Part shown: positions 14,568 to 24,705 of the stretch, piece by piece | Layout of the letters: every line of letters starts with the position of its first letter | Position numbering within the stretch: the stretch's first letter is position 1 | Virus record (IMG/VR): IMGVR_UViG_3300029267_004179 | Coordinates: 32,001-96,000 of that record | Length of the DNA: 64,000 bases | Direction: 5' to 3' (one strand) | Source of the DNA: a virus | Notes under the pieces: model-generated | What the model was told of the DNA's origin: nothing | The model's input: only the letters and a program-made list of their open reading frames with translations | Databases searched by the model: none | Translations under genes and position numbers: made by a program

Positions 14568-14645
14568 TTTAGCTTATATTAAACGATCTGATAAAAACTA
14601 ATATAAGGGTATAGGGTAAAAATTTTATAGGGGTTAAAAAGGAAA
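14568..14645 (+). repeat. dispersed intergenic element, copy 2
   Basis: ATTAAACGATCTGATAAAAACTAATATAAGGG-TATAGGGTAAAAATTTTATAGG-GGTTAAAAAGGAAAT; core 14610-14631. Confidence 0.95.
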
Positions 14646-18685: not shown

Positions 18686-20308
18686 ATGGGAATTACAACG
18701 TCATATAAGCCCGAGCAAACAATGCTGAAAGAAATTCAGGATGGCAATCCTGCGGTCAGAACATGGGAAGCATTGAGGGATAATCTTCATGAAATAAGAA
18801 ATGACACAGGCACTTTGAATAGCACTGTAGTAGGCGATATCTATATTACTGGTGATACAGTCTTGTCTGAACCCTTGTTGTGTAATGACCTATATGTTTT
18901 AAATGAAGCAGAGCTTGACTGTGGCGGGTTTGAAGTTCTTGTTCTGGGAAACCTTGTTATAAGGTCGGCAGAACTCATCAACTGTTTGAAGCTTGAGGTT
19001 TATGGAACGATTGATATCAATCGGGCTGTTGGAGATACTTCTTTCACAAATCTACTTTACTGTGATGAAACGAACTGTCATGGTCAAGCGTGGTTTTACT
19101 ATACGGAATGGGATAGAGCGGCAGGTGTAATTATTGAGCCCGCACCTACCGACTATATAAAACCACAATTGTTTGAAAGTGCTTTTTCATGGATAACTGC
19201 TTCAAACAATTATGCTGCTGCTTTTAGGTTCGCAGAAATTCATGTTGCCGGTACTTTCGGTTTTGCTTCAATTGGTGCAAATGCCTTTGCTCAATATTGT
19301 TGTCATCCGACAAAACTTTTTGTTAAGGGCGATATGAATATGTTCACTTGTACCCAACTCTTCCTTGCTGGAAGAGATATAACTACCCCTACTTCATGGA
19401 ATGTTGTCGGATCATTCACCCATAATCTTGCTGCTTTTACTTTAAACTTGACAGGCGGCGCTGGCGGCGCTGGCGTAATCGCCACTCATGCCGGTGCTGG
19501 TGGGGAGTTTAATGGTCCACCAAACCAAACTGTAGGTGGTGCTACTGCTGGAACTTATAATGGTGGTGGTACGGGATATCGTGGAACCGGTGCTGGTGCT
19601 GCCGGTAGTCAAAAAGGTGGTGCAGGTGGTGCAGGTATTAATGGTCCCGGCGCTGGTGGGGGCGGTGGAGGCGGTGCTACTGACTTCAACTTTTATTATG
19701 GTAGTGGTGATCTTGGTTTAACATTCAACATGACATCACGTGGTGGTAATGGTGGAGCTGGTGGAGGTATAGGTGGTAATTCCGATGGTGGTGATGGCGG
19801 TGATGGTGGTGATGTAGCTGTTAGGTATACTGCCAATCAAATGACAATGCCTTTTACTGTTACTGGCGGGACCGGTGGTGCTGCTGGTGGCATTGGAGCT
19901 GCCGGTGCTAATGGTGCTGCCGGTAGCTCAAGTCATATTGTCGGAGCAGTTTTTGCCGGATATCGACCTGATATTCCAGTTCCTACTACTGCTGATGGTG
20001 CAACTACTGCTACTCTTTCATGGAATGTTCCTGCTGATGATGATGGTGACAATCTTGATTTCCAAGTAGAAGTAGAAGAAAAATATACTCCATTTGTTTT
20101 TGTGACAATTTATCAAGATGATAGTGATGCGAGTCCAGGTAAATTTTCTGGCGCTCCCCCTTATGCTCAAGGCGTAGGGAGTGTTACTTACACACCCGGT
20201 GGGTTAACTTCAGGGCAATTGTACCGTTGGAGAGTAAGGGCTTTCAAAGATACTTCCACTTCTACATATAGTATTTTTACACAATGGCGTGAATTTTATG
20301 CTACTTAG
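18686..20308 (+). CDS. glycine-rich tail fibre/receptor-binding protein with C-terminal FN3-like domain
   Basis: Long GG.GG repeats; LSW.VP.D.DGD.L.F.V...GL..G..Y.WRVRA. Confidence 0.7.
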   Translation: MGITTSYKPEQTMLKEIQDGNPAVRTWEALRDNLHEIRNDTGTLNSTVVGDIYITGDTVLSEPLLCNDLYVLNEAELDCGGFEVLVLGNLVIRSAELINCLKLEVYGTIDINRAVGDTSFTNLLYCDETNCHGQAWFYYTEWDRAAGVIIEPAPTDYIKPQLFESAFSWITASNNYAAAFRFAEIHVAGTFGFASIGANAFAQYCCHPTKLFVKGDMNMFTCTQLFLAGRDITTPTSWNVVGSFTHNLAAFTLNLTGGAGGAGVIATHAGAGGEFNGPPNQTVGGATAGTYNGGGTGYRGTGAGAAGSQKGGAGGAGINGPGAGGGGGGGATDFNFYYGSGDLGLTFNMTSRGGNGGAGGGIGGNSDGGDGGDGGDVAVRYTANQMTMPFTVTGGTGGAAGGIGAAGANGAAGSSSHIVGAVFAGYRPDIPVPTTADGATTATLSWNVPADDDGDNLDFQVEVEEKYTPFVFVTIYQDDSDASPGKFSGAPPYAQGVGSVTYTPGGLTSGQLYRWRVRAFKDTSTSTYSIFTQWREFYAT

Positions 20309-20911: not shown

Positions 20912-21037
20912 ATGCCATTCGAAAGTAAAAAACAAGAAAAATGGATGAGAATAAACACGCCCAAATTGTATAAAGCTTGGGTTCGGAAATATGGTCATTA
21001 TAAACCGAAGAAGAAGAAATCATCCAAAAAGAAATGA
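20912..21037 (+). CDS. small basic phage protein (MPFxSxKQxxWM family)
   Basis: MPFESKKQEKWMRINTPKLYKAWVRKYG...; below the ORF track cutoff. Confidence 0.65.
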   Translation: MPFESKKQEKWMRINTPKLYKAWVRKYGHYKPKKKKSSKKK

Positions 21038-21052: not shown

Positions 21053-21928
21053 ATGACAATAGATAATATTTTTCAGCCTATCGTAATTGCAGGTCATGAA
21101 GTTAACTATGATTTTTTGCAATTAACACCTATTACTCACAATGTAAAAGACTCCTTCACGTTCTCCTACGGCGGGTTTACTTGGGTTATATGCACTAATG
21201 TAGATCAAGGACCGAACGGTGGTGGTTTGACGGTTTTTAAAGAAGTAAATGGTATTTTGACTTTCCATGCAAATCTTTTTACCGGCAGATACAAAATGTG
21301 GGCTCCGAGAGTGGTCATTGAAGACGATGTGCTATACGTTTTGGTTACTGACACACAAGGGACCGGGAATGAGCCTGACTGGTACAACCACATGAGGGCT
21401 TTTAAGTTTCAGTATGCTATCTTCAGTCCTACCAATTGGTGTAGCAATCCGGGGAAAATTGTTGTAGGTGATGACTCCTTCGGGATTATAGATGTTGAAC
21501 TGTTCAAAATCGGGGAGTTCTACTACCTTTGCTATGTCATTATGGACTGGCACCAAGGGGAATGGTGGGACTTATGGTGTTCTTGTGCTAATAACTGGTC
21601 CGGCCCATTTACTTCTCCAAATAAGGTTAACTTTTCGGGAGCGACAGAACACGGAATAGAAGAAGCGCCTTGTTATAATAAAGATGATGGAATGTTTTAT
21701 TTTTCAGTCAACGACAGTGCTACCATTTCATCTTTAAGGAGAGGTTATTTAATAAGCAGCGGTATAAATGCAGACGGTTCACAAATCCTGAATTTGAGCG
21801 AGGATGATATGTTTAGGATGCAAGATGTCAGTGGTGGACTATGTACCCATCCTGATTTTTGGAAAGGAAAAATAAGAGCAACTGGAAAAGGTGTTCATGG
21901 ATATCACATAATGGAGCAAATCATCTGA
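21053..21928 (+). CDS. five-bladed beta-propeller glycoside hydrolase (GH43-like)
   Basis: KDS, MWAP, IIDVELF and IEEAP match the GH43 xDP/WAP/IDP/EGP motifs. Confidence 0.6.
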   Translation: MTIDNIFQPIVIAGHEVNYDFLQLTPITHNVKDSFTFSYGGFTWVICTNVDQGPNGGGLTVFKEVNGILTFHANLFTGRYKMWAPRVVIEDDVLYVLVTDTQGTGNEPDWYNHMRAFKFQYAIFSPTNWCSNPGKIVVGDDSFGIIDVELFKIGEFYYLCYVIMDWHQGEWWDLWCSCANNWSGPFTSPNKVNFSGATEHGIEEAPCYNKDDGMFYFSVNDSATISSLRRGYLISSGINADGSQILNLSEDDMFRMQDVSGGLCTHPDFWKGKIRATGKGVHGYHIMEQII

Positions 21929-21941
21929 TCGGAGCTGTAAA

Positions 21942-22298
21942 ATGCCTACCAAAAAAGACGATCCTTTCTTAAAGTTGGCTACCGCTGTTGAAAAATTAAC
22001 AGGTAATCATCTTTGTGCTGGCGATAACTGCCCCAACTTCATAGGAGTAAAAGCATCTCAAAAAACATTTCAAGTGATTGTAATTTCTTTGATGGGAGTA
22101 TTATGTATAATGGCAGGGGCAGTTATGCTTCAGCTTGCCGCATTTAAGGATGATTACAAAAATGATTATGCTAAGGTACAAGATGTTATAACAAGGGTAG
22201 GTGTGGTAGAAAAAGACATAGAAACGCTTGAGATAAAAACAGACAATATCAATGCTCGTGTCTATAACCTTCAAATAAAAAATGCAAGGACTCCATAA
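21942..22298 (+). CDS. single-TM coiled-coil membrane protein (lysis-region, holin/XhlA-like)
   Basis: Hydrophobic VIVISLMGVLCIMAGAVML followed by heptad repeats. Confidence 0.55.
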   Translation: MPTKKDDPFLKLATAVEKLTGNHLCAGDNCPNFIGVKASQKTFQVIVISLMGVLCIMAGAVMLQLAAFKDDYKNDYAKVQDVITRVGVVEKDIETLEIKTDNINARVYNLQIKNARTP

Positions 22299-22299
22299 A

Positions 22300-23334
22300 A
22301 TGTCATTCTTATCGAATCTTATTTCAGGTATCACCGGCAAGAAGCTTGAAGAATCGGAACGACTTGTGGATGAAGCAAAATTAAGGATTCAATCGGCTTC
22401 TCAGGAATTACTTGAAGCAGCTTCAGAAGCAAAAGAACAAAGAGACCAGCTTGCTTTAAGTGAAAAAAAGTATAGGAATTTATTTCACAATTCACCGGTA
22501 GGTATGTTCAGGTTAAGTAACGATGGAACAAAATTCCTTGAAGTCAACAATAGGTCTGTTGAAATTCTTGGCTATGATAGTGTTGAAGACTTGATGAATG
22601 TTCATCCGATTACTATTTGTGCGTCCGCTGACGTTTTTCATCGCATCCAATCAATACTTGATAACAAAGGAAGGGTTATCAAATATATCTTTTGTGGTCG
22701 GAAAAAGAATGGAGAAATTGTCACATTGGAATCATCCATGAAGGTCTACCCACACGAAGATTACACTGAAGGGACTGTGATTGATGTCACTGAAAGGGTG
22801 AGAATAGCAAAGCTGAAGCAATATGCCTATGAACTTGCCAATCAAATGGTTGATCTTGCGTGGTATAAGGATAGTAATTTGAAGTTTTTGTTTATTAATG
22901 CTTCCGGTTTAAAAGTCCTTTTCGGCCCGGATATGAAGCTTTCTGATGTAGAAGGATTAAGCGATATAGATGTTGTCAGAAAACATTACAAGGGAAATTA
23001 TGATTCAAATCTTGTCGGAGAAGTCTGTCAAGCTACCGATAAGAAAACTATCGAAGCACGGAAACCATCCCGATTTATTGAAATTGCTAAAAATTTGGCA
23101 GGAGTAGAAGTCTGGCTTGATGTTTTTAAGGTGCCTTGTTTTGCTACTGATGGAAAATTTGTATCAATAGTTGGAAATGCAAGGCTTATACATGAGAATA
23201 TGCGGAGTGAATGTTCTTCTTTTTTAAAAGAGAAGATGGAAGAAGGCAAGGTTGATTTGGTTGCTGGGAAATTTTATCACCTAAAAGAATTTGAATATGC
23301 CGAACTAAGGGAAAGCATAATCGATAAATCTTGA
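22300..23334 (+). CDS. stand-alone tandem PAS-domain protein (alternative start 22282)
   Basis: SEKKYRNLF.NSPVGMF...DG..FLEVN...ILGY...DVTER (PAS 1); DLAWYKD....FLFIN...WLDV.KVP....DG....IVG.AR (PAS_4); no output domain. Confidence 0.9.
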   Translation: MSFLSNLISGITGKKLEESERLVDEAKLRIQSASQELLEAASEAKEQRDQLALSEKKYRNLFHNSPVGMFRLSNDGTKFLEVNNRSVEILGYDSVEDLMNVHPITICASADVFHRIQSILDNKGRVIKYIFCGRKKNGEIVTLESSMKVYPHEDYTEGTVIDVTERVRIAKLKQYAYELANQMVDLAWYKDSNLKFLFINASGLKVLFGPDMKLSDVEGLSDIDVVRKHYKGNYDSNLVGEVCQATDKKTIEARKPSRFIEIAKNLAGVEVWLDVFKVPCFATDGKFVSIVGNARLIHENMRSECSSFLKEKMEEGKVDLVAGKFYHLKEFEYAELRESIIDKS

Positions 23335-23347
23335 AAAGAATCATCAT

Positions 23348-23431
23348 CATTTAAGATTCTATCAGCATAAAATAAAAAACTAATATAAGGGTATAGGGTA
23401 AAAATTTTATAGGCCTTAAAAAGGAAATAAG
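23348..23431 (+). repeat. dispersed intergenic element, copy 3
   Basis: Core TATAGGGTAAAAATTTTATAGG at 23392-23413 with shared flanks. Confidence 0.95.
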
Positions 23432-23438
23432 GAAGCCG

Positions 23439-23867
23439 ATGGGAATCTTATTTAAACATTTTTCAGAAGTTCCTGAACGATTATGGAAATGGGATAATTT
23501 CAAACCGAATGAGTATTATCTTTTTTGCCCGTGTTGCGGGGAGTTCTACCTTGATTTTGAAAGTATGGATCGACTTCAAGCTGCAAGGGATAATATCGGT
23601 AGTCCTATTCGAATTAACAGTGGGCATCGATGTCCTATTCATAATGCAAGGGTAGGTGGCGCTCCATTATCTCAGCACAAAAAAATTGCTTTTGATATTT
23701 CTGTTTTTAATAGCGACAAAAAGAAAGTCCTTGAAGGATTAAAAAAAGCAGGTTTTACCACATACGGGTTCTATAAAACTTTTGTTCATACTGATATTCG
23801 TAAGGGTAGAATGTGGTATGGAAAAGGAGGTAAAGAGGCATGGATGGGATTAATTGGGCAGACGTGA
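23439..23867 (+). CDS. endolysin, peptidase M15A (Zn D-Ala-D-Ala carboxypeptidase-like)
   Basis: CPCCG, INSGHRC..HN..VGGA..SQH...AFDI, FVH.D.R. Confidence 0.92.
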   Translation: MGILFKHFSEVPERLWKWDNFKPNEYYLFCPCCGEFYLDFESMDRLQAARDNIGSPIRINSGHRCPIHNARVGGAPLSQHKKIAFDISVFNSDKKKVLEGLKKAGFTTYGFYKTFVHTDIRKGRMWYGKGGKEAWMGLIGQT

Positions 23868-24370
23868 TAGGGGTAGGGGCATCTGCTGCCACCGGCGGCA
23901 TTTTTGGACTCGTTGGTAGTCTTGTCGGCGCTGTTGGCAAATATTTCCAAAAGAAACAGGAACAGTCGTTTCTTCGGGAAAAATGGGATTATGAAACAAA
24001 GCTTCTTGAATTGAACATGAAAAAAGGAATACAAGAGTTTGATCATGAAATGGCATTAACCGCTCAACAAGGATCATGGTCGGGGCTTGAAGCATCGTAT
24101 AAGCATGATGCATCTATAGGGCCAGTTCACAAGTGGGTAAATGATATAGTAAAGTTGTTTAGGCCGGTCTTAACTATCGCACTTTGGATTTTATGCGGAA
24201 TAATCTTTTGGTGGTTTGGGCAGAAGGAGTTTTCTGAAACCCTTTCATCAGAAGATATTTTTATTTTAAAAAGATATATGATCCATACCACCTTCTTTGC
24301 TGCTGGTTCTGCTGCAATGTGGTGGTTCGGAGAACGGTCTTTAACTCCACCTGATATGAAACACAAATAG
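23840..24370 (+). CDS. putative holin (3-TM type)
   Basis: N-terminal GGIFGLVG helix, WV.....FRP.LT, WWFG.R; next to the endolysin. Confidence 0.75.
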   Translation: MDGINWADVIGVGASAATGGIFGLVGSLVGAVGKYFQKKQEQSFLREKWDYETKLLELNMKKGIQEFDHEMALTAQQGSWSGLEASYKHDASIGPVHKWVNDIVKLFRPVLTIALWILCGIIFWWFGQKEFSETLSSEDIFILKRYMIHTTFFAAGSAAMWWFGERSLTPPDMKHK

Positions 24371-24378
24371 GTGATGCT

Positions 24379-24705
24379 ATGTTTAAAAAATACAAAGAAT
24401 GGTCGATAGTAAAGAAGATTACCGCTATCTGTGGGTTGATAACTGCCTTGGCAGGGGTCGTGACTCTTCTTTTTACTATCGATCATCGATTTGCTAAGAG
24501 TAGTGAGCTGAAGAAAGTCAAAACAAGGCTTGAGCATAAGATTGAAAGTGATCATTATCAGTGGTTGGAGCAAAGATCATATACTTTAAAGGATAGATAT
24601 ATTAATAAGCCTATGCCGCAGTCTGTGAAAGAAGAAATACGGAAAATTGAAGATGATTTGAAGTGGTTAAGGGAGAAGATTAAAAGCCTGATGAAAGATG
24701 ATTAA
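24379..24705 (+). CDS. membrane protein (lysis region)
   Basis: One TM segment followed by a charged helix. Confidence 0.6.
   Translation: MFKKYKEWSIVKKITAICGLITALAGVVTLLFTIDHRFAKSSELKKVKTRLEHKIESDHYQWLEQRSYTLKDRYINKPMPQSVKEEIRKIEDDLKWLREKIKSLMKDD

What the first reader, a model, noticed from the sequence alone, without database searches (positions are those of the whole stretch)
21942..24705. Output-less dual-PAS sensor embedded in the lysis cassette
Seen: a coiled coil plus two PAS domains with no kinase, GGDEF or HTH. It is coupled to an upstream single-TM protein and sits directly before the endolysin and holin. Established: PAS domains sense ligands, redox or light and normally drive an attached output domain. 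Inference: a signal-responsive lysis-timing system (PAS protein as antiholin or holin partner), or a decoy for host two-component signalling.
Basis: partly seen in the sequence, partly recalled or inferred. Interest (0 to 1): 0.75.

Follow-up and report, generated by a model that had tools for sequence, protein, structure and literature searches.

The report
Phage membrane-anchor plus output-less PAS pair
A 104-kb uncultured marine phage carries a private gene pair, a small membrane protein coupled to a two-PAS sensor-type protein with no output domain, just upstream of its cell-bursting genes; it may tune the time of lysis, but related lysis cassettes lack it and no function has been tested.

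Summary
Window 22300-23334 encodes a 344-aa protein: a long N-terminal helix, two PAS folds and a short helical tail. It has no kinase, GGDEF, EAL or HTH, and the whole 104-kb phage genome encodes no kinase ATPase, receiver or GGDEF domain.

The gene starts 1 nt after the stop of g118, a single-TM protein with a coiled-coil tail. It ends 105 bp before an M15 endolysin, which is followed by a 3-TM holin-like gene (g176) and a TM+coiled-coil gene (g108).

"Embedded in the lysis cassette" overstates it.
- The M15/g176 pair is conserved in all 10 closer loci examined, and none of 21 related loci (181 kb) carries the PAS gene or g118.
- Both genes are orphans among billions of proteins.
- A dispersed promoter-like element lies between the PAS gene and M15.

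So this is an accessory pair next to the cassette. I found the same build, a small TM+coil gene overlapping a PAS-only gene, in cultured Agrobacterium phage Atu_ph07. Earlier notes of this scan report similar pairs on other phage DNA. No paper describing them was found.

My best reading is a membrane-tethered sensor that acts by protein contacts, most plausibly on lysis timing (about 0.3). A host-signalling decoy or an unrelated accessory gene remain live rivals.

The parts
21053..21928 (+). g291: GH43/GH32/GH130-like five-bladed beta-propeller protein. It is the first gene of the tightly packed g291-g118-PAS run and is context only.
   Evidence: No Pfam or PHROG match. ESM Atlas structure search gives TM 0.70-0.76 over the full length to GH43/GH130 clusters. 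This is a lead only.
21942..22298 (+). g118: 118-aa single-pass membrane protein. It has a 43-aa N-terminal part with CxxxxxC, a TM at 44-66 and a 52-aa C-terminal coil. It is the candidate membrane anchor or partner of the PAS protein.
   Evidence: Hydropathy maximum 2.73. Heptad score 0.78 against a shuffle mean of 0.60 (sd 0.11). It is an orphan in the 5.8-billion-protein search. Its stop at 22296-22298 lies 1 nt before the PAS start.
22300..23334 (+). Output-less tandem-PAS protein, 344 aa (an alternative ATG at 22282 would give 350 aa).
   Evidence: Pfam and TIGRFAM PAS matches. AF2 model with pLDDT 87.7. Foldseek matches to DosP, LOV-HK, NifL, PpsR, MmoS and FixL tandem PAS structures. 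Its only near-identical protein is its own database record.
22303..22488 (+). N-terminal long helix (residues 2-63). It ends in the canonical S-box linker motif (SEKKYRNLF) that precedes PAS domains in multi-PAS proteins.
   Evidence: AF2 secondary structure. Hits align this helix to inter-PAS linkers of cellular proteins, with query ranges starting at residues 14-35. It has no clear heptad pattern.
22501..22785 (+). PAS1 (residues 68-162).
   Evidence: The best PDB sequence neighbour is ARNT PAS-B at E 0.065, which is not significant.
22855..23187 (+). PAS2 (residues 186-296), with an insertion at about 209-238.
   Evidence: PAS_4 match at the gathering cut-off. pLDDT is mostly above 90. Several library hits have their best stretch on residues 168-318.
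23191..23331 (+). C-terminal helical tail (residues 298-344); no domain recognised.
   Evidence: AF2 gives helix 298-314 and a low-confidence helix 321-343. There is no Pfam or NCBIfam match and no H-box.
23373..23436 (+). Copy of a dispersed intergenic element (22-bp core at 23392-23413) in the 105-bp gap between the PAS gene and the endolysin gene. It is promoter- or leader-like.
   Evidence: Seven exact copies of the core in the window against 0 expected. Conserved arms and an RBS-like AAGGAAATAAG stretch run into start codons, and orientation fits the downstream gene in 6 of the 8 copies printed. Metagenome contigs break at this repeat.
23439..23867 (+). M15 peptidase: the endolysin. It has no signal or SAR segment.
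   Evidence: Pfam Peptidase_M15_3 at E 5e-19; phrog_894 endolysin at E 1.4e-24. No hydrophobic segment.
23840..24370 (+). g176: holin-like membrane protein with three hydrophobic segments. It overlaps the end of the endolysin gene by 28 nt.
   Evidence: The M15/g176 pair is conserved in all 10 closer loci examined. phrog_6637, unknown function, at E 3e-11. Atlas feature score 0.95-0.96 to viral clusters, one auto-named '3-TM holin'. PF11351 is not matched.
24379..24705 (+). g108: N-terminal TM plus coiled-coil protein, i-spanin-like in build. It is the counterpart of the TM+coil ORFs found just upstream of M15 in related cassettes.
   Evidence: heptad score 0.88 against 0.61. Analogous 103-114-aa ORFs occur in L035, L038, L036/37 and L002, with weak hits at E 0.04 and E 0.31. 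No lipobox o-spanin was found.

Best explanation
g118 and the PAS gene form an accessory two-gene module. One product is a small single-pass membrane protein; the other is a soluble, output-less tandem-PAS protein translated right behind it.

The PAS protein looks like a piece cut out of a bacterial multi-PAS signalling protein (linker helix, PAS, linker, PAS). It was taken up long ago and is now fully adapted to the phage. It sits at the 3' end of the tail-fibre gene block, immediately upstream of the phage's conserved lysis cassette (M15 endolysin, 3-TM holin-like g176, TM+coil g108), but it is not a conserved part of that cassette.

Proposed mechanism (inferred, not shown):
1. g118 tethers a PAS-PAS dimer to the inner membrane.
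2. One or both PAS pockets bind a small ligand or cofactor that reports the state of the infected cell.
3. The genome encodes no kinase, receiver or cyclase, so the output must be a protein-protein contact.
4. The most plausible target late in infection is the neighbouring holin. The pair would then act as an optional, signal-responsive antiholin-like brake or trigger on lysis timing.

Odds:
- The module-level statements (real pair, accessory, output by protein contact only): about 0.8.
- The lysis-timing target: about 0.3.
For: Shown:
- Two confident PAS folds and no output domain.
- No HATPase_c, Response_reg or GGDEF anywhere in the complete 104-kb genome.
- A 1-nt gap between the g118 stop and the PAS start, with the RBS inside g118.
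- Codon use and GC typical of the phage, z about 0.1 and -0.6.
- The S-box linker motifs and all homologues are PAS repeats of cellular multi-domain proteins.
- The gene lies 105 bp upstream of an endolysin and holin-like pair whose linkage holds in all 10 closer loci examined.
- The same build exists in cultured phage Atu_ph07: an 81-aa TM+coil protein overlaps by 4 nt a 536-aa protein with only PAS domains.

Leads only: earlier notes of this scan report similar TM-protein plus PAS-only pairs in other phages, several near lysis genes.

Precedent for accessory lysis-timing factors: T4 antiholins RI and RIII acting on holin T (PMC11413866, PMC8385771).
Against: - None of 21 related loci (181 kb), including the 10 closer M15/g176 cassettes, has the PAS gene or g118. 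The cassette works without them.
- Both genes are orphans, so no co-variation or synteny supports a link to lysis.
- A dispersed promoter-like element separates the PAS gene from M15, which suggests separate transcription units.
- The Atu_ph07 pair lies among hypothetical genes on the opposite strand, not by annotated lysis genes.
- No cofactor signature could be assigned.
- The tail-fibre/lysis junction is a common site for unrelated accessory genes (my own knowledge).
- The topology of g118 is ambiguous from its flanking charges.
Confidence: 0.32

Rival explanations
1. Host-signalling decoy. The PAS-PAS fragment, with its linker helices, heterodimerises with a host multi-PAS sensor kinase or cyclase and blocks or hijacks that pathway as a dominant negative. 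g118 places it at the membrane, where such sensors sit.
For: - The protein is in effect the sensory core of a cellular multi-PAS signalling protein without its output. All homologues are such proteins (the MASE3 PAS kinase model matches partially).
- Tandem PAS cores and their linker helices are dimerisation surfaces; Foldseek neighbours include NifL-NifA, PpsR and HIF-ARNT complexes.
- The phage encodes no signalling output of its own.
Against: - Identity to any cellular PAS protein is at most about 35%, and the best hits are spread over cyanobacteria, Dehalococcoidia and Caldithrix. No plausible cognate host target is visible.
- The gene sits at the end of the late structural block, where interfering with host transcriptional signalling would bring little (inference).
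- The host is unknown.
Confidence: 0.2
2. An accessory module unrelated to lysis. The g291-g118-PAS run is an accessory gene set at the tail/lysis junction. It would serve another membrane-linked function, such as superinfection exclusion, envelope or energy sensing for another late step, or control of the GH43-like enzyme g291.
For: - g291, g118 and the PAS gene are packed with 13-nt and 1-nt gaps and are all absent from the related loci.
- The Atu_ph07 pair is not by lysis genes.
Against: - No positive evidence points to any specific alternative function.
- PADLOC gives no defence-related match.
- No flanking repeats or compositional break mark a mobile insert.
Confidence: 0.28
3. A functionless remnant: a captured fragment of a host sensor gene that the phage carries without use.
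For: - It is an orphan found in one phage lineage only.
- It looks like an internal piece of a larger protein.
Against: - The 344-codon frame is intact, with a good RBS, tight coupling and phage-typical codon usage.
- Both PAS folds are modelled with high confidence.
- The sequence is identical in sediment and seawater metagenomes from at least 3 studies.
Confidence: 0.07

Closest known systems
Agrobacterium phage Atu_ph07 gene pair AUZ94860 (81 aa) / AUZ94861 (536 aa, annotated 'multi-sensor signal transduction histidine')
   Same: A small TM plus coiled-coil protein is translationally coupled (4-nt overlap) to a protein made only of PAS domains that ends just after the last PAS. It is phage-encoded and uncharacterised. 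The window's PAS-PAS aligns collinearly with the last two PAS domains (19% identity, pairwise E 7e-4). It is the best BFVD structural match, at E 3.5e-15.
   Different: It has three PAS domains rather than two. The anchor proteins show no sequence similarity. It lies in a 490-kb jumbo phage, flanked by opposite-strand hypothetical genes, with no endolysin or holin alongside. The homology is only generic PAS homology.
Phage T4 lysis inhibition: holin T with antiholins RI (periplasmic) and RIII (cytoplasmic)
   Same: Accessory, non-essential phage proteins bind the holin and set the time of lysis in response to a signal. One of them is cytoplasmic (PMC8385771, PMC11413866). This is the functional model for the lysis-timing reading.
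   Different: There is no sequence or fold relation: RI and RIII have no PAS domain. The signal is superinfection. Binding to a holin is shown for T4 and untested here.
VqmA-Phage of vibriophage VP882
   Same: A phage-encoded PAS-domain receptor binds a small molecule (DPO) and thereby decides when the host is lysed (PMC8284805).
   Different: VqmA-Phage has a helix-turn-helix DNA-binding output and acts on transcription of qtip in a temperate phage. The protein here has no HTH or other output, and no sequence match to any cultured phage.
Tandem PAS sensory cores of bacterial signalling proteins (DosP PAS-A/PAS-B, FixL, MmoS, NifL, Brucella LOV-HK, PpsR)
   Same: They share the linker-PAS-linker-PAS architecture and fold. 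Foldseek gives E 1e-13 to 1e-10 and TM up to 0.54 on the query. NifL and PpsR signal through protein-protein binding.
   Different: All of them carry, or sit in, proteins with an output domain (EAL/GGDEF, kinase, HTH). Identity is only 10-14%. Their cofactor motifs (LOV cysteine motif; heme or FAD sites) are absent or cannot be assigned here.
Canonical holin-endolysin-spanin cassettes
   Same: The flanking genes fit this pattern: a cytoplasmic M15 endolysin, an overlapping multi-TM holin-like gene and a TM+coil i-spanin-like gene.
   Different: No described cassette contains a PAS protein, and literature searches found none. No o-spanin lipoprotein was found here.

Membership tests
PAS domain superfamily | Sequence match to curated PAS models above their cut-offs | tested here: met
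   PAS_8 scores 33.8 bits (cut-off 21.8), PAS_9 30.1 (27) and PAS_4 23.2 (23.1). TIGR00229 scores 48.5 bits (22.9).
PAS domain superfamily | Five-stranded antiparallel sheet with flanking helices, present twice | tested here: met
   AF2 model at pLDDT 87.7 with two beta-sheet/helix units at 68-162 and 186-296. Foldseek matches tandem-PAS structures at E 1e-13.
Sensor histidine kinase | DHp/HisKA H-box and HATPase_c catalytic domain | tested here: not met
   No HisKA or HATPase_c match in Pfam or NCBIfam, and no H-box motif. No HATPase_c anywhere in the phage genome.
GGDEF/EAL c-di-GMP enzymes | GGDEF or EAL catalytic domain | tested here: not met
   Neither the domain nor the motif is present. 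No GGDEF domain in the genome.
LOV (flavin) photosensors | GXNCRFLQ motif with the adduct-forming cysteine | tested here: not met
   The motif is absent from the sequence.
Heme PAS sensors (FixL/DosP type) | Proximal histidine on the F-alpha helix and a heme pocket | tested here: inconclusive
   PAS1 has a His (residue 114) in the predicted F-alpha helix 110-123. No FixL or DosP sequence match appears even at E 10. The structural match to DosP has only 10-12% identity.
VqmA-type PAS-HTH receptors | C-terminal helix-turn-helix DNA-binding domain | tested here: not met
   No HTH family matches. The C-terminal 47 residues form one or two helices with no recognised domain.
Core component of the M15/g176 lysis cassette | Conserved synteny with the endolysin and holin-like genes in related phages | tested here: not met
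   None of the 10 closer related cassettes, and none of 21 related loci, contains a match to the PAS protein or g118.
Antiholin (functional class) | Binds the holin and delays or gates hole formation | not testable with these tools
This needs a lysis-timing assay and interaction tests.
Phage 'membrane anchor + output-less PAS' gene pairs (undescribed in the literature; seen in Atu_ph07 and in earlier notes of this scan) | Small single-TM gene immediately upstream of, and coupled to, a PAS-only gene in a phage genome | tested here: met
   g118 and the PAS gene are 1 nt apart. The Atu_ph07 pair overlaps by 4 nt. Membership is by architecture only: no specific sequence homology links the pairs.
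Holin (for g176) | Small multi-TM protein genetically linked to the endolysin; match to a curated holin family | tested here: inconclusive
   Linkage and overlap with M15 hold in all 10 closer loci examined, and there are three hydrophobic segments. No Pfam holin family is matched by any of 7 family members. All 79 homologues are unnamed. The Atlas 'holin of 3 TMs' cluster is only a lead.

The most novel reading that the evidence does not exclude
The g118/PAS pair is a ligand- or redox-gated antiholin system. It would be a membrane-tethered PAS sensor that reads the metabolic state of the infected cell and directly holds or releases the neighbouring holin. That would be the first known case of a phage setting its lysis time through a dedicated small-molecule sensor domain. 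It would also be one instance of a widespread, undescribed class of phage 'anchor + output-less PAS' modules.
Probability: 0.2. Interest if true: 0.8.

Novelty: new variant of a known kind. Interest (0 to 1): 0.47.

Why it matters
Known controls on phage lysis timing are holin dosage, membrane potential and, in a few phages, antiholins that respond to superinfection. A phage-encoded sensor domain wired to lysis would be a new kind of input.

More generally, output-less PAS proteins paired with a small membrane protein seem to recur in large phages. I verified one case here, in Atu_ph07, where the gene is mis-annotated as a histidine kinase. Earlier notes of this scan report others, and I found no paper describing them.

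This locus is compact: the pair sits right next to a simple three-gene lysis cassette. That makes it a convenient construct for testing whether such pairs act on lysis. On its own, though, it adds little, because it is an orphan with no relatives to compare.

Tried and rejected
- **Relatives of the PAS protein.** tblastn against 50,697 phage records gave nothing at E 1e-3 and only 4 spurious hits at E 10. The IMG/VR pattern scan gave nothing. An alignment of PAS hits was too divergent to scan with.
- **Relatives of the phage.** Scans with a baseplate-region protein and with g291 found none. A blastn of 8 kb against the phage records found nothing.
- **g176 family in bacterial and archaeal genomes.** The pattern scan of 185,579 species genomes gave no confirmed hit, so no host clue came from prophages.
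- **Host.** Still unknown. There are no tRNAs in the window. The DnaE-like polymerase matches Streptomyces phages at only 33-35% identity, which says nothing about the host.
- **Promoter and terminator scan of 18-26 kb.** No more sites than in shuffled sequence.
- **T7-like RNA polymerase search.** It was meant to explain the TAATA...TATAGGG-like element. There was no match, but the control rang nowhere, so the result is uninformative.
- **PDB sequence searches for cofactor-type assignment.** Nothing significant.
- **Fusion of g118 and PAS.** Rejected: the PAS frame has a stop at 22276-22278.
- **g118 and g108 as paralogues.** No alignment.
- **o-spanin lipoprotein.** None found in 20.3-25.3 kb.
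- **AF2 model of g176.** pLDDT 60.7, too poor to search with.
- **PADLOC.** No meaningful match.
- **Sequencing runs.** No RNA holder is listed. The DNA runs hold the same phage at 100% identity, so there were no variants for a selection test.
- **Other records.** Searching the Atu_ph07 PAS protein in IMG/VR returned only itself. The records behind the metagenome loci are not held for whole-record searches.
- **Literature.** Searches for phage PAS-only proteins, PAS antiholins and PAS in Atu_ph07 found nothing relevant.
Full report
**Where it lies.** The window is bases 32001-96000 of a 104,019-bp IMG/VR virus record that CheckV rates complete. The same phage occurs at 100% identity in sediment and seawater metagenomes from at least three studies.

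The plus strand up to 24705 carries the virion genes: head closure protein, tail chaperone, a 2215-aa tape measure protein, tail and fibre proteins. The order after that is:
- a 540-aa fibre with an fn3-like end
- three small basic ORFs
- g291 (21053-21928)
- g118 (21942-22298)
- the PAS gene (22300-23334)
- a 105-bp gap
- an M15 peptidase (23439-23867)
- g176 (23840-24370)
- g108 (24379-24705)

After 24705 the genes switch to the minus strand.

The PAS protein matches PAS_8 and PAS_9 at residues 63-171 and PAS_4 at 187-297. It also matches TIGR00229 at E 9e-13.

A model built on 28 sequences has mean pLDDT 87.7. It shows a helix at 2-63, PAS1 at 68-162, a linker helix at 164-182, PAS2 at 186-296 and a helical tail. 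Foldseek places it among tandem-PAS sensory cores (DosP, Brucella LOV-HK, NifL, PpsR, MmoS, FixL) at E 1e-13 to 1e-10 but only 10-14% identity.

There is no kinase, GGDEF, EAL or HTH domain or motif. The complete phage genome also has no HATPase_c, receiver or GGDEF domain. Any output must therefore be a protein-protein contact.

No cofactor type can be assigned:
- The LOV motif is absent.
- A histidine lies in the predicted F-alpha helix of PAS1, but no heme-PAS sequence match exists.
- The nearest PDB sequence is ARNT PAS-B at a non-significant E of 0.065.

I would correct three details:
- The start is most likely ATG 22300 (AAGGA 8 nt upstream; the database gene call is 344 aa). That is one base after the g118 stop codon, and the PAS frame is closed by a stop just upstream, so the two proteins are not fused.
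- The N-terminal helix has no clear heptad pattern, so 'coiled coil' is not shown.
- That helix ends in the S-box linker motif that precedes PAS domains in multi-PAS proteins, and PAS1 ends in the usual 'D-V-T-E-R' motif. Library hits align the helix to inter-PAS linkers. The protein therefore looks like an internal linker-PAS-linker-PAS piece of a larger cellular sensor.

**Origin.** In 5.8 billion clustered proteins the only close match is the protein's own record. Everything else is a cellular multi-domain PAS protein with up to about 40% identity over short local stretches, covering at most about half of the query.

An exhaustive phmmer run over 1.84 billion representatives gives 30,680 generic PAS hits, none above 35% identity. 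The named ones are scattered over cyanobacteria, Dehalococcoidia and Caldithrix.

No cultured phage has a detectable sequence relative, and neither does IMG/VR. g118 is likewise an orphan. Codon usage and GC of both genes are typical of the phage. The capture is therefore old, and no donor can be named.

**The lysis genes and whether the PAS gene belongs to them.** The M15 peptidase matches Pfam at E 5e-19 and the endolysin PHROG at E 1e-24. It has no signal or SAR segment, so it needs a holin.

g176 has three hydrophobic segments and overlaps the end of M15. I collected its relatives from IMG/VR and from JGI metagenomes. In all 10 closer loci examined (g176 36-49% identical, M15 43-61%), an M15 gene lies directly upstream, mostly overlapping. 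The pair sits at the end of the rightward block, before a strand switch. This is good evidence that g176 is the holin partner. However, no curated holin family matches it and its AF2 model is poor.

Several of these cassettes have a 103-114-aa ORF with an N-terminal TM and a coiled coil just upstream of M15, built like g108.

None of the 21 related loci (181 kb) has any tblastn match, even at E 1, to the PAS protein or to g118. The closest IMG/VR relative goes straight from an 855-aa fibre gene to M15. The core cassette is therefore M15 plus g176, usually with a TM+coil protein. The g118/PAS pair is a private addition of this phage.

The 105-bp gap between the PAS gene and M15 holds one copy of a dispersed element with an invariant 22-bp core: seven exact copies in the window against none expected. 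Conserved arms and an RBS-like stretch run into start codons, and orientation fits the downstream gene in 6 of the 8 copies printed. It looks like a promoter or leader. If it is, M15-g176-g108 is its own transcription unit, and g118-PAS belongs to the tail-fibre unit that starts at the copy at 14610. That is an inference: a generic promoter/terminator scan was uninformative.

**A recurring architecture.** BFVD holds viral PAS-fold proteins, including short PAS-only ones from uncultured phages and from Cellulophaga phages.

I followed up the best match, from Agrobacterium phage Atu_ph07. The record calls it a 'multi-sensor signal transduction histidine' protein, but it has only PAS domains and no kinase domain. 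It is preceded, with a 4-nt overlap, by an 81-aa protein with one TM and a coiled-coil tail. This is the same two-gene build as g118 plus PAS.

The similarity is architectural only. The PAS parts share 19% identity and the anchors share none. The Atu_ph07 pair is not beside annotated lysis genes.

Earlier notes of this scan describe similar pairs in other phages, several next to holin-like or lysis genes. I treat those as leads and not as evidence. I found no paper on phage PAS-only proteins or PAS antiholins. The one studied phage PAS sensor, VqmA-Phage, has a DNA-binding output (PMC8284805).

**How it most likely works.**

Shown:
- an intact, phage-adapted, output-less tandem-PAS protein
- tight coupling to a single-pass membrane protein
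- no enzymatic signalling partner in the genome
- a position at the end of the late structural block, immediately before the lysis cassette

Inferred:
- g118 tethers the PAS protein at the membrane.
- The PAS domains read a ligand or cofactor state.
- The output is a contact with another protein.

The target is the open question. A late, membrane-linked event next door is lysis, and T4 shows that optional cytoplasmic and periplasmic antiholins can set lysis time (PMC8385771, PMC11413866). I therefore put the lysis-timing reading first, at about 0.3.

The rivals are:
- a dominant-negative decoy of a host PAS sensor (0.2)
- an accessory module unrelated to lysis, perhaps tied to the GH43-like g291 (0.28)
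- a functionless remnant (0.07)

The comparative evidence shows that the cassette does not need the pair. It does not say what the pair does.

**Verdict.** The finding is real and well described, but 'embedded in the lysis cassette' and the proposed function go beyond the evidence.

As a single orphan locus it cannot be resolved further by computation with the tools that were open. Its value is as a compact test case for a class of phage 'anchor + output-less PAS' pairs that appears to be unreported in the literature I could search.

Noticed in passing
window 4544, 14610, 23392, 31405(-), 36783, 44238(-), 56195 (22-bp cores); further copies elsewhere in the genome: A dispersed intergenic element with an invariant 22-bp core (TATAGGGTAAAAATTTTATAGG). 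It has conserved arms (AAACTAATA-N6 upstream, CC/GG-TTAAAA downstream) and an RBS-like AAGGAAATAAG stretch running into start codons. Orientation fits the downstream gene in 6 of the 8 copies printed. It looks like a phage-specific promoter or leader. Metagenome contigs break at it.
   Followed up: partly
window 21053-21928: g291 has no Pfam or PHROG match. The ESM Atlas places its predicted structure with GH43/GH32/GH130 five-bladed beta-propellers (TM 0.70-0.76 over the full length). It may be a glycoside hydrolase-like accessory or tail-associated enzyme, and it sits directly upstream of the g118/PAS pair.
   Followed up: partly
window 23439-24370; loci L002, L003, L026, L028, L030, L032, L035-L038: An M15 peptidase overlapping a 170-183-aa 3-TM protein (phrog_6637, 'unknown function') is a conserved two-gene lysis cassette in diverse marine and sediment phages with GC from 37% to 56%. 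The PHROG family is probably a holin family that has not been named as such.
   Followed up: yes
L024 5358-7210 (Agrobacterium phage Atu_ph07, MF403008 36357-38209): The protein annotated 'multi-sensor signal transduction histidine' has only PAS domains and no kinase domain. It is preceded by an overlapping 81-aa TM plus coiled-coil gene. The annotation is misleading.
   Followed up: yes
window 20912-21037: A 41-aa, very basic ORF with a good RBS fills most of the apparent gap between g90 and g291. The run from the tail fibre to the PAS gene is therefore densely coding, with no room for a large regulatory region.
   Followed up: no
L036 2036-2911 and L037 2008-2883: In one related cassette, three small ORFs with hydrophobic N-termini lie just upstream of M15. 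One is TM+coil and the other two look like signal peptides. They may be spanin-like components and hint at a Gram-negative host for this cassette type.
   Followed up: no
window 49510-53235: A 1241-aa DnaE-like DNA polymerase III alpha subunit. Its nearest cultured-phage relatives are Streptomyces phages, at only 33-35% identity.
   Followed up: no
window 18686-20308: A 540-aa fibre-like protein with a long glycine-rich repeat region and a weak fn3-like C-terminus. Metagenome contigs from other organisms cross-match its glycine-rich part.
   Followed up: no
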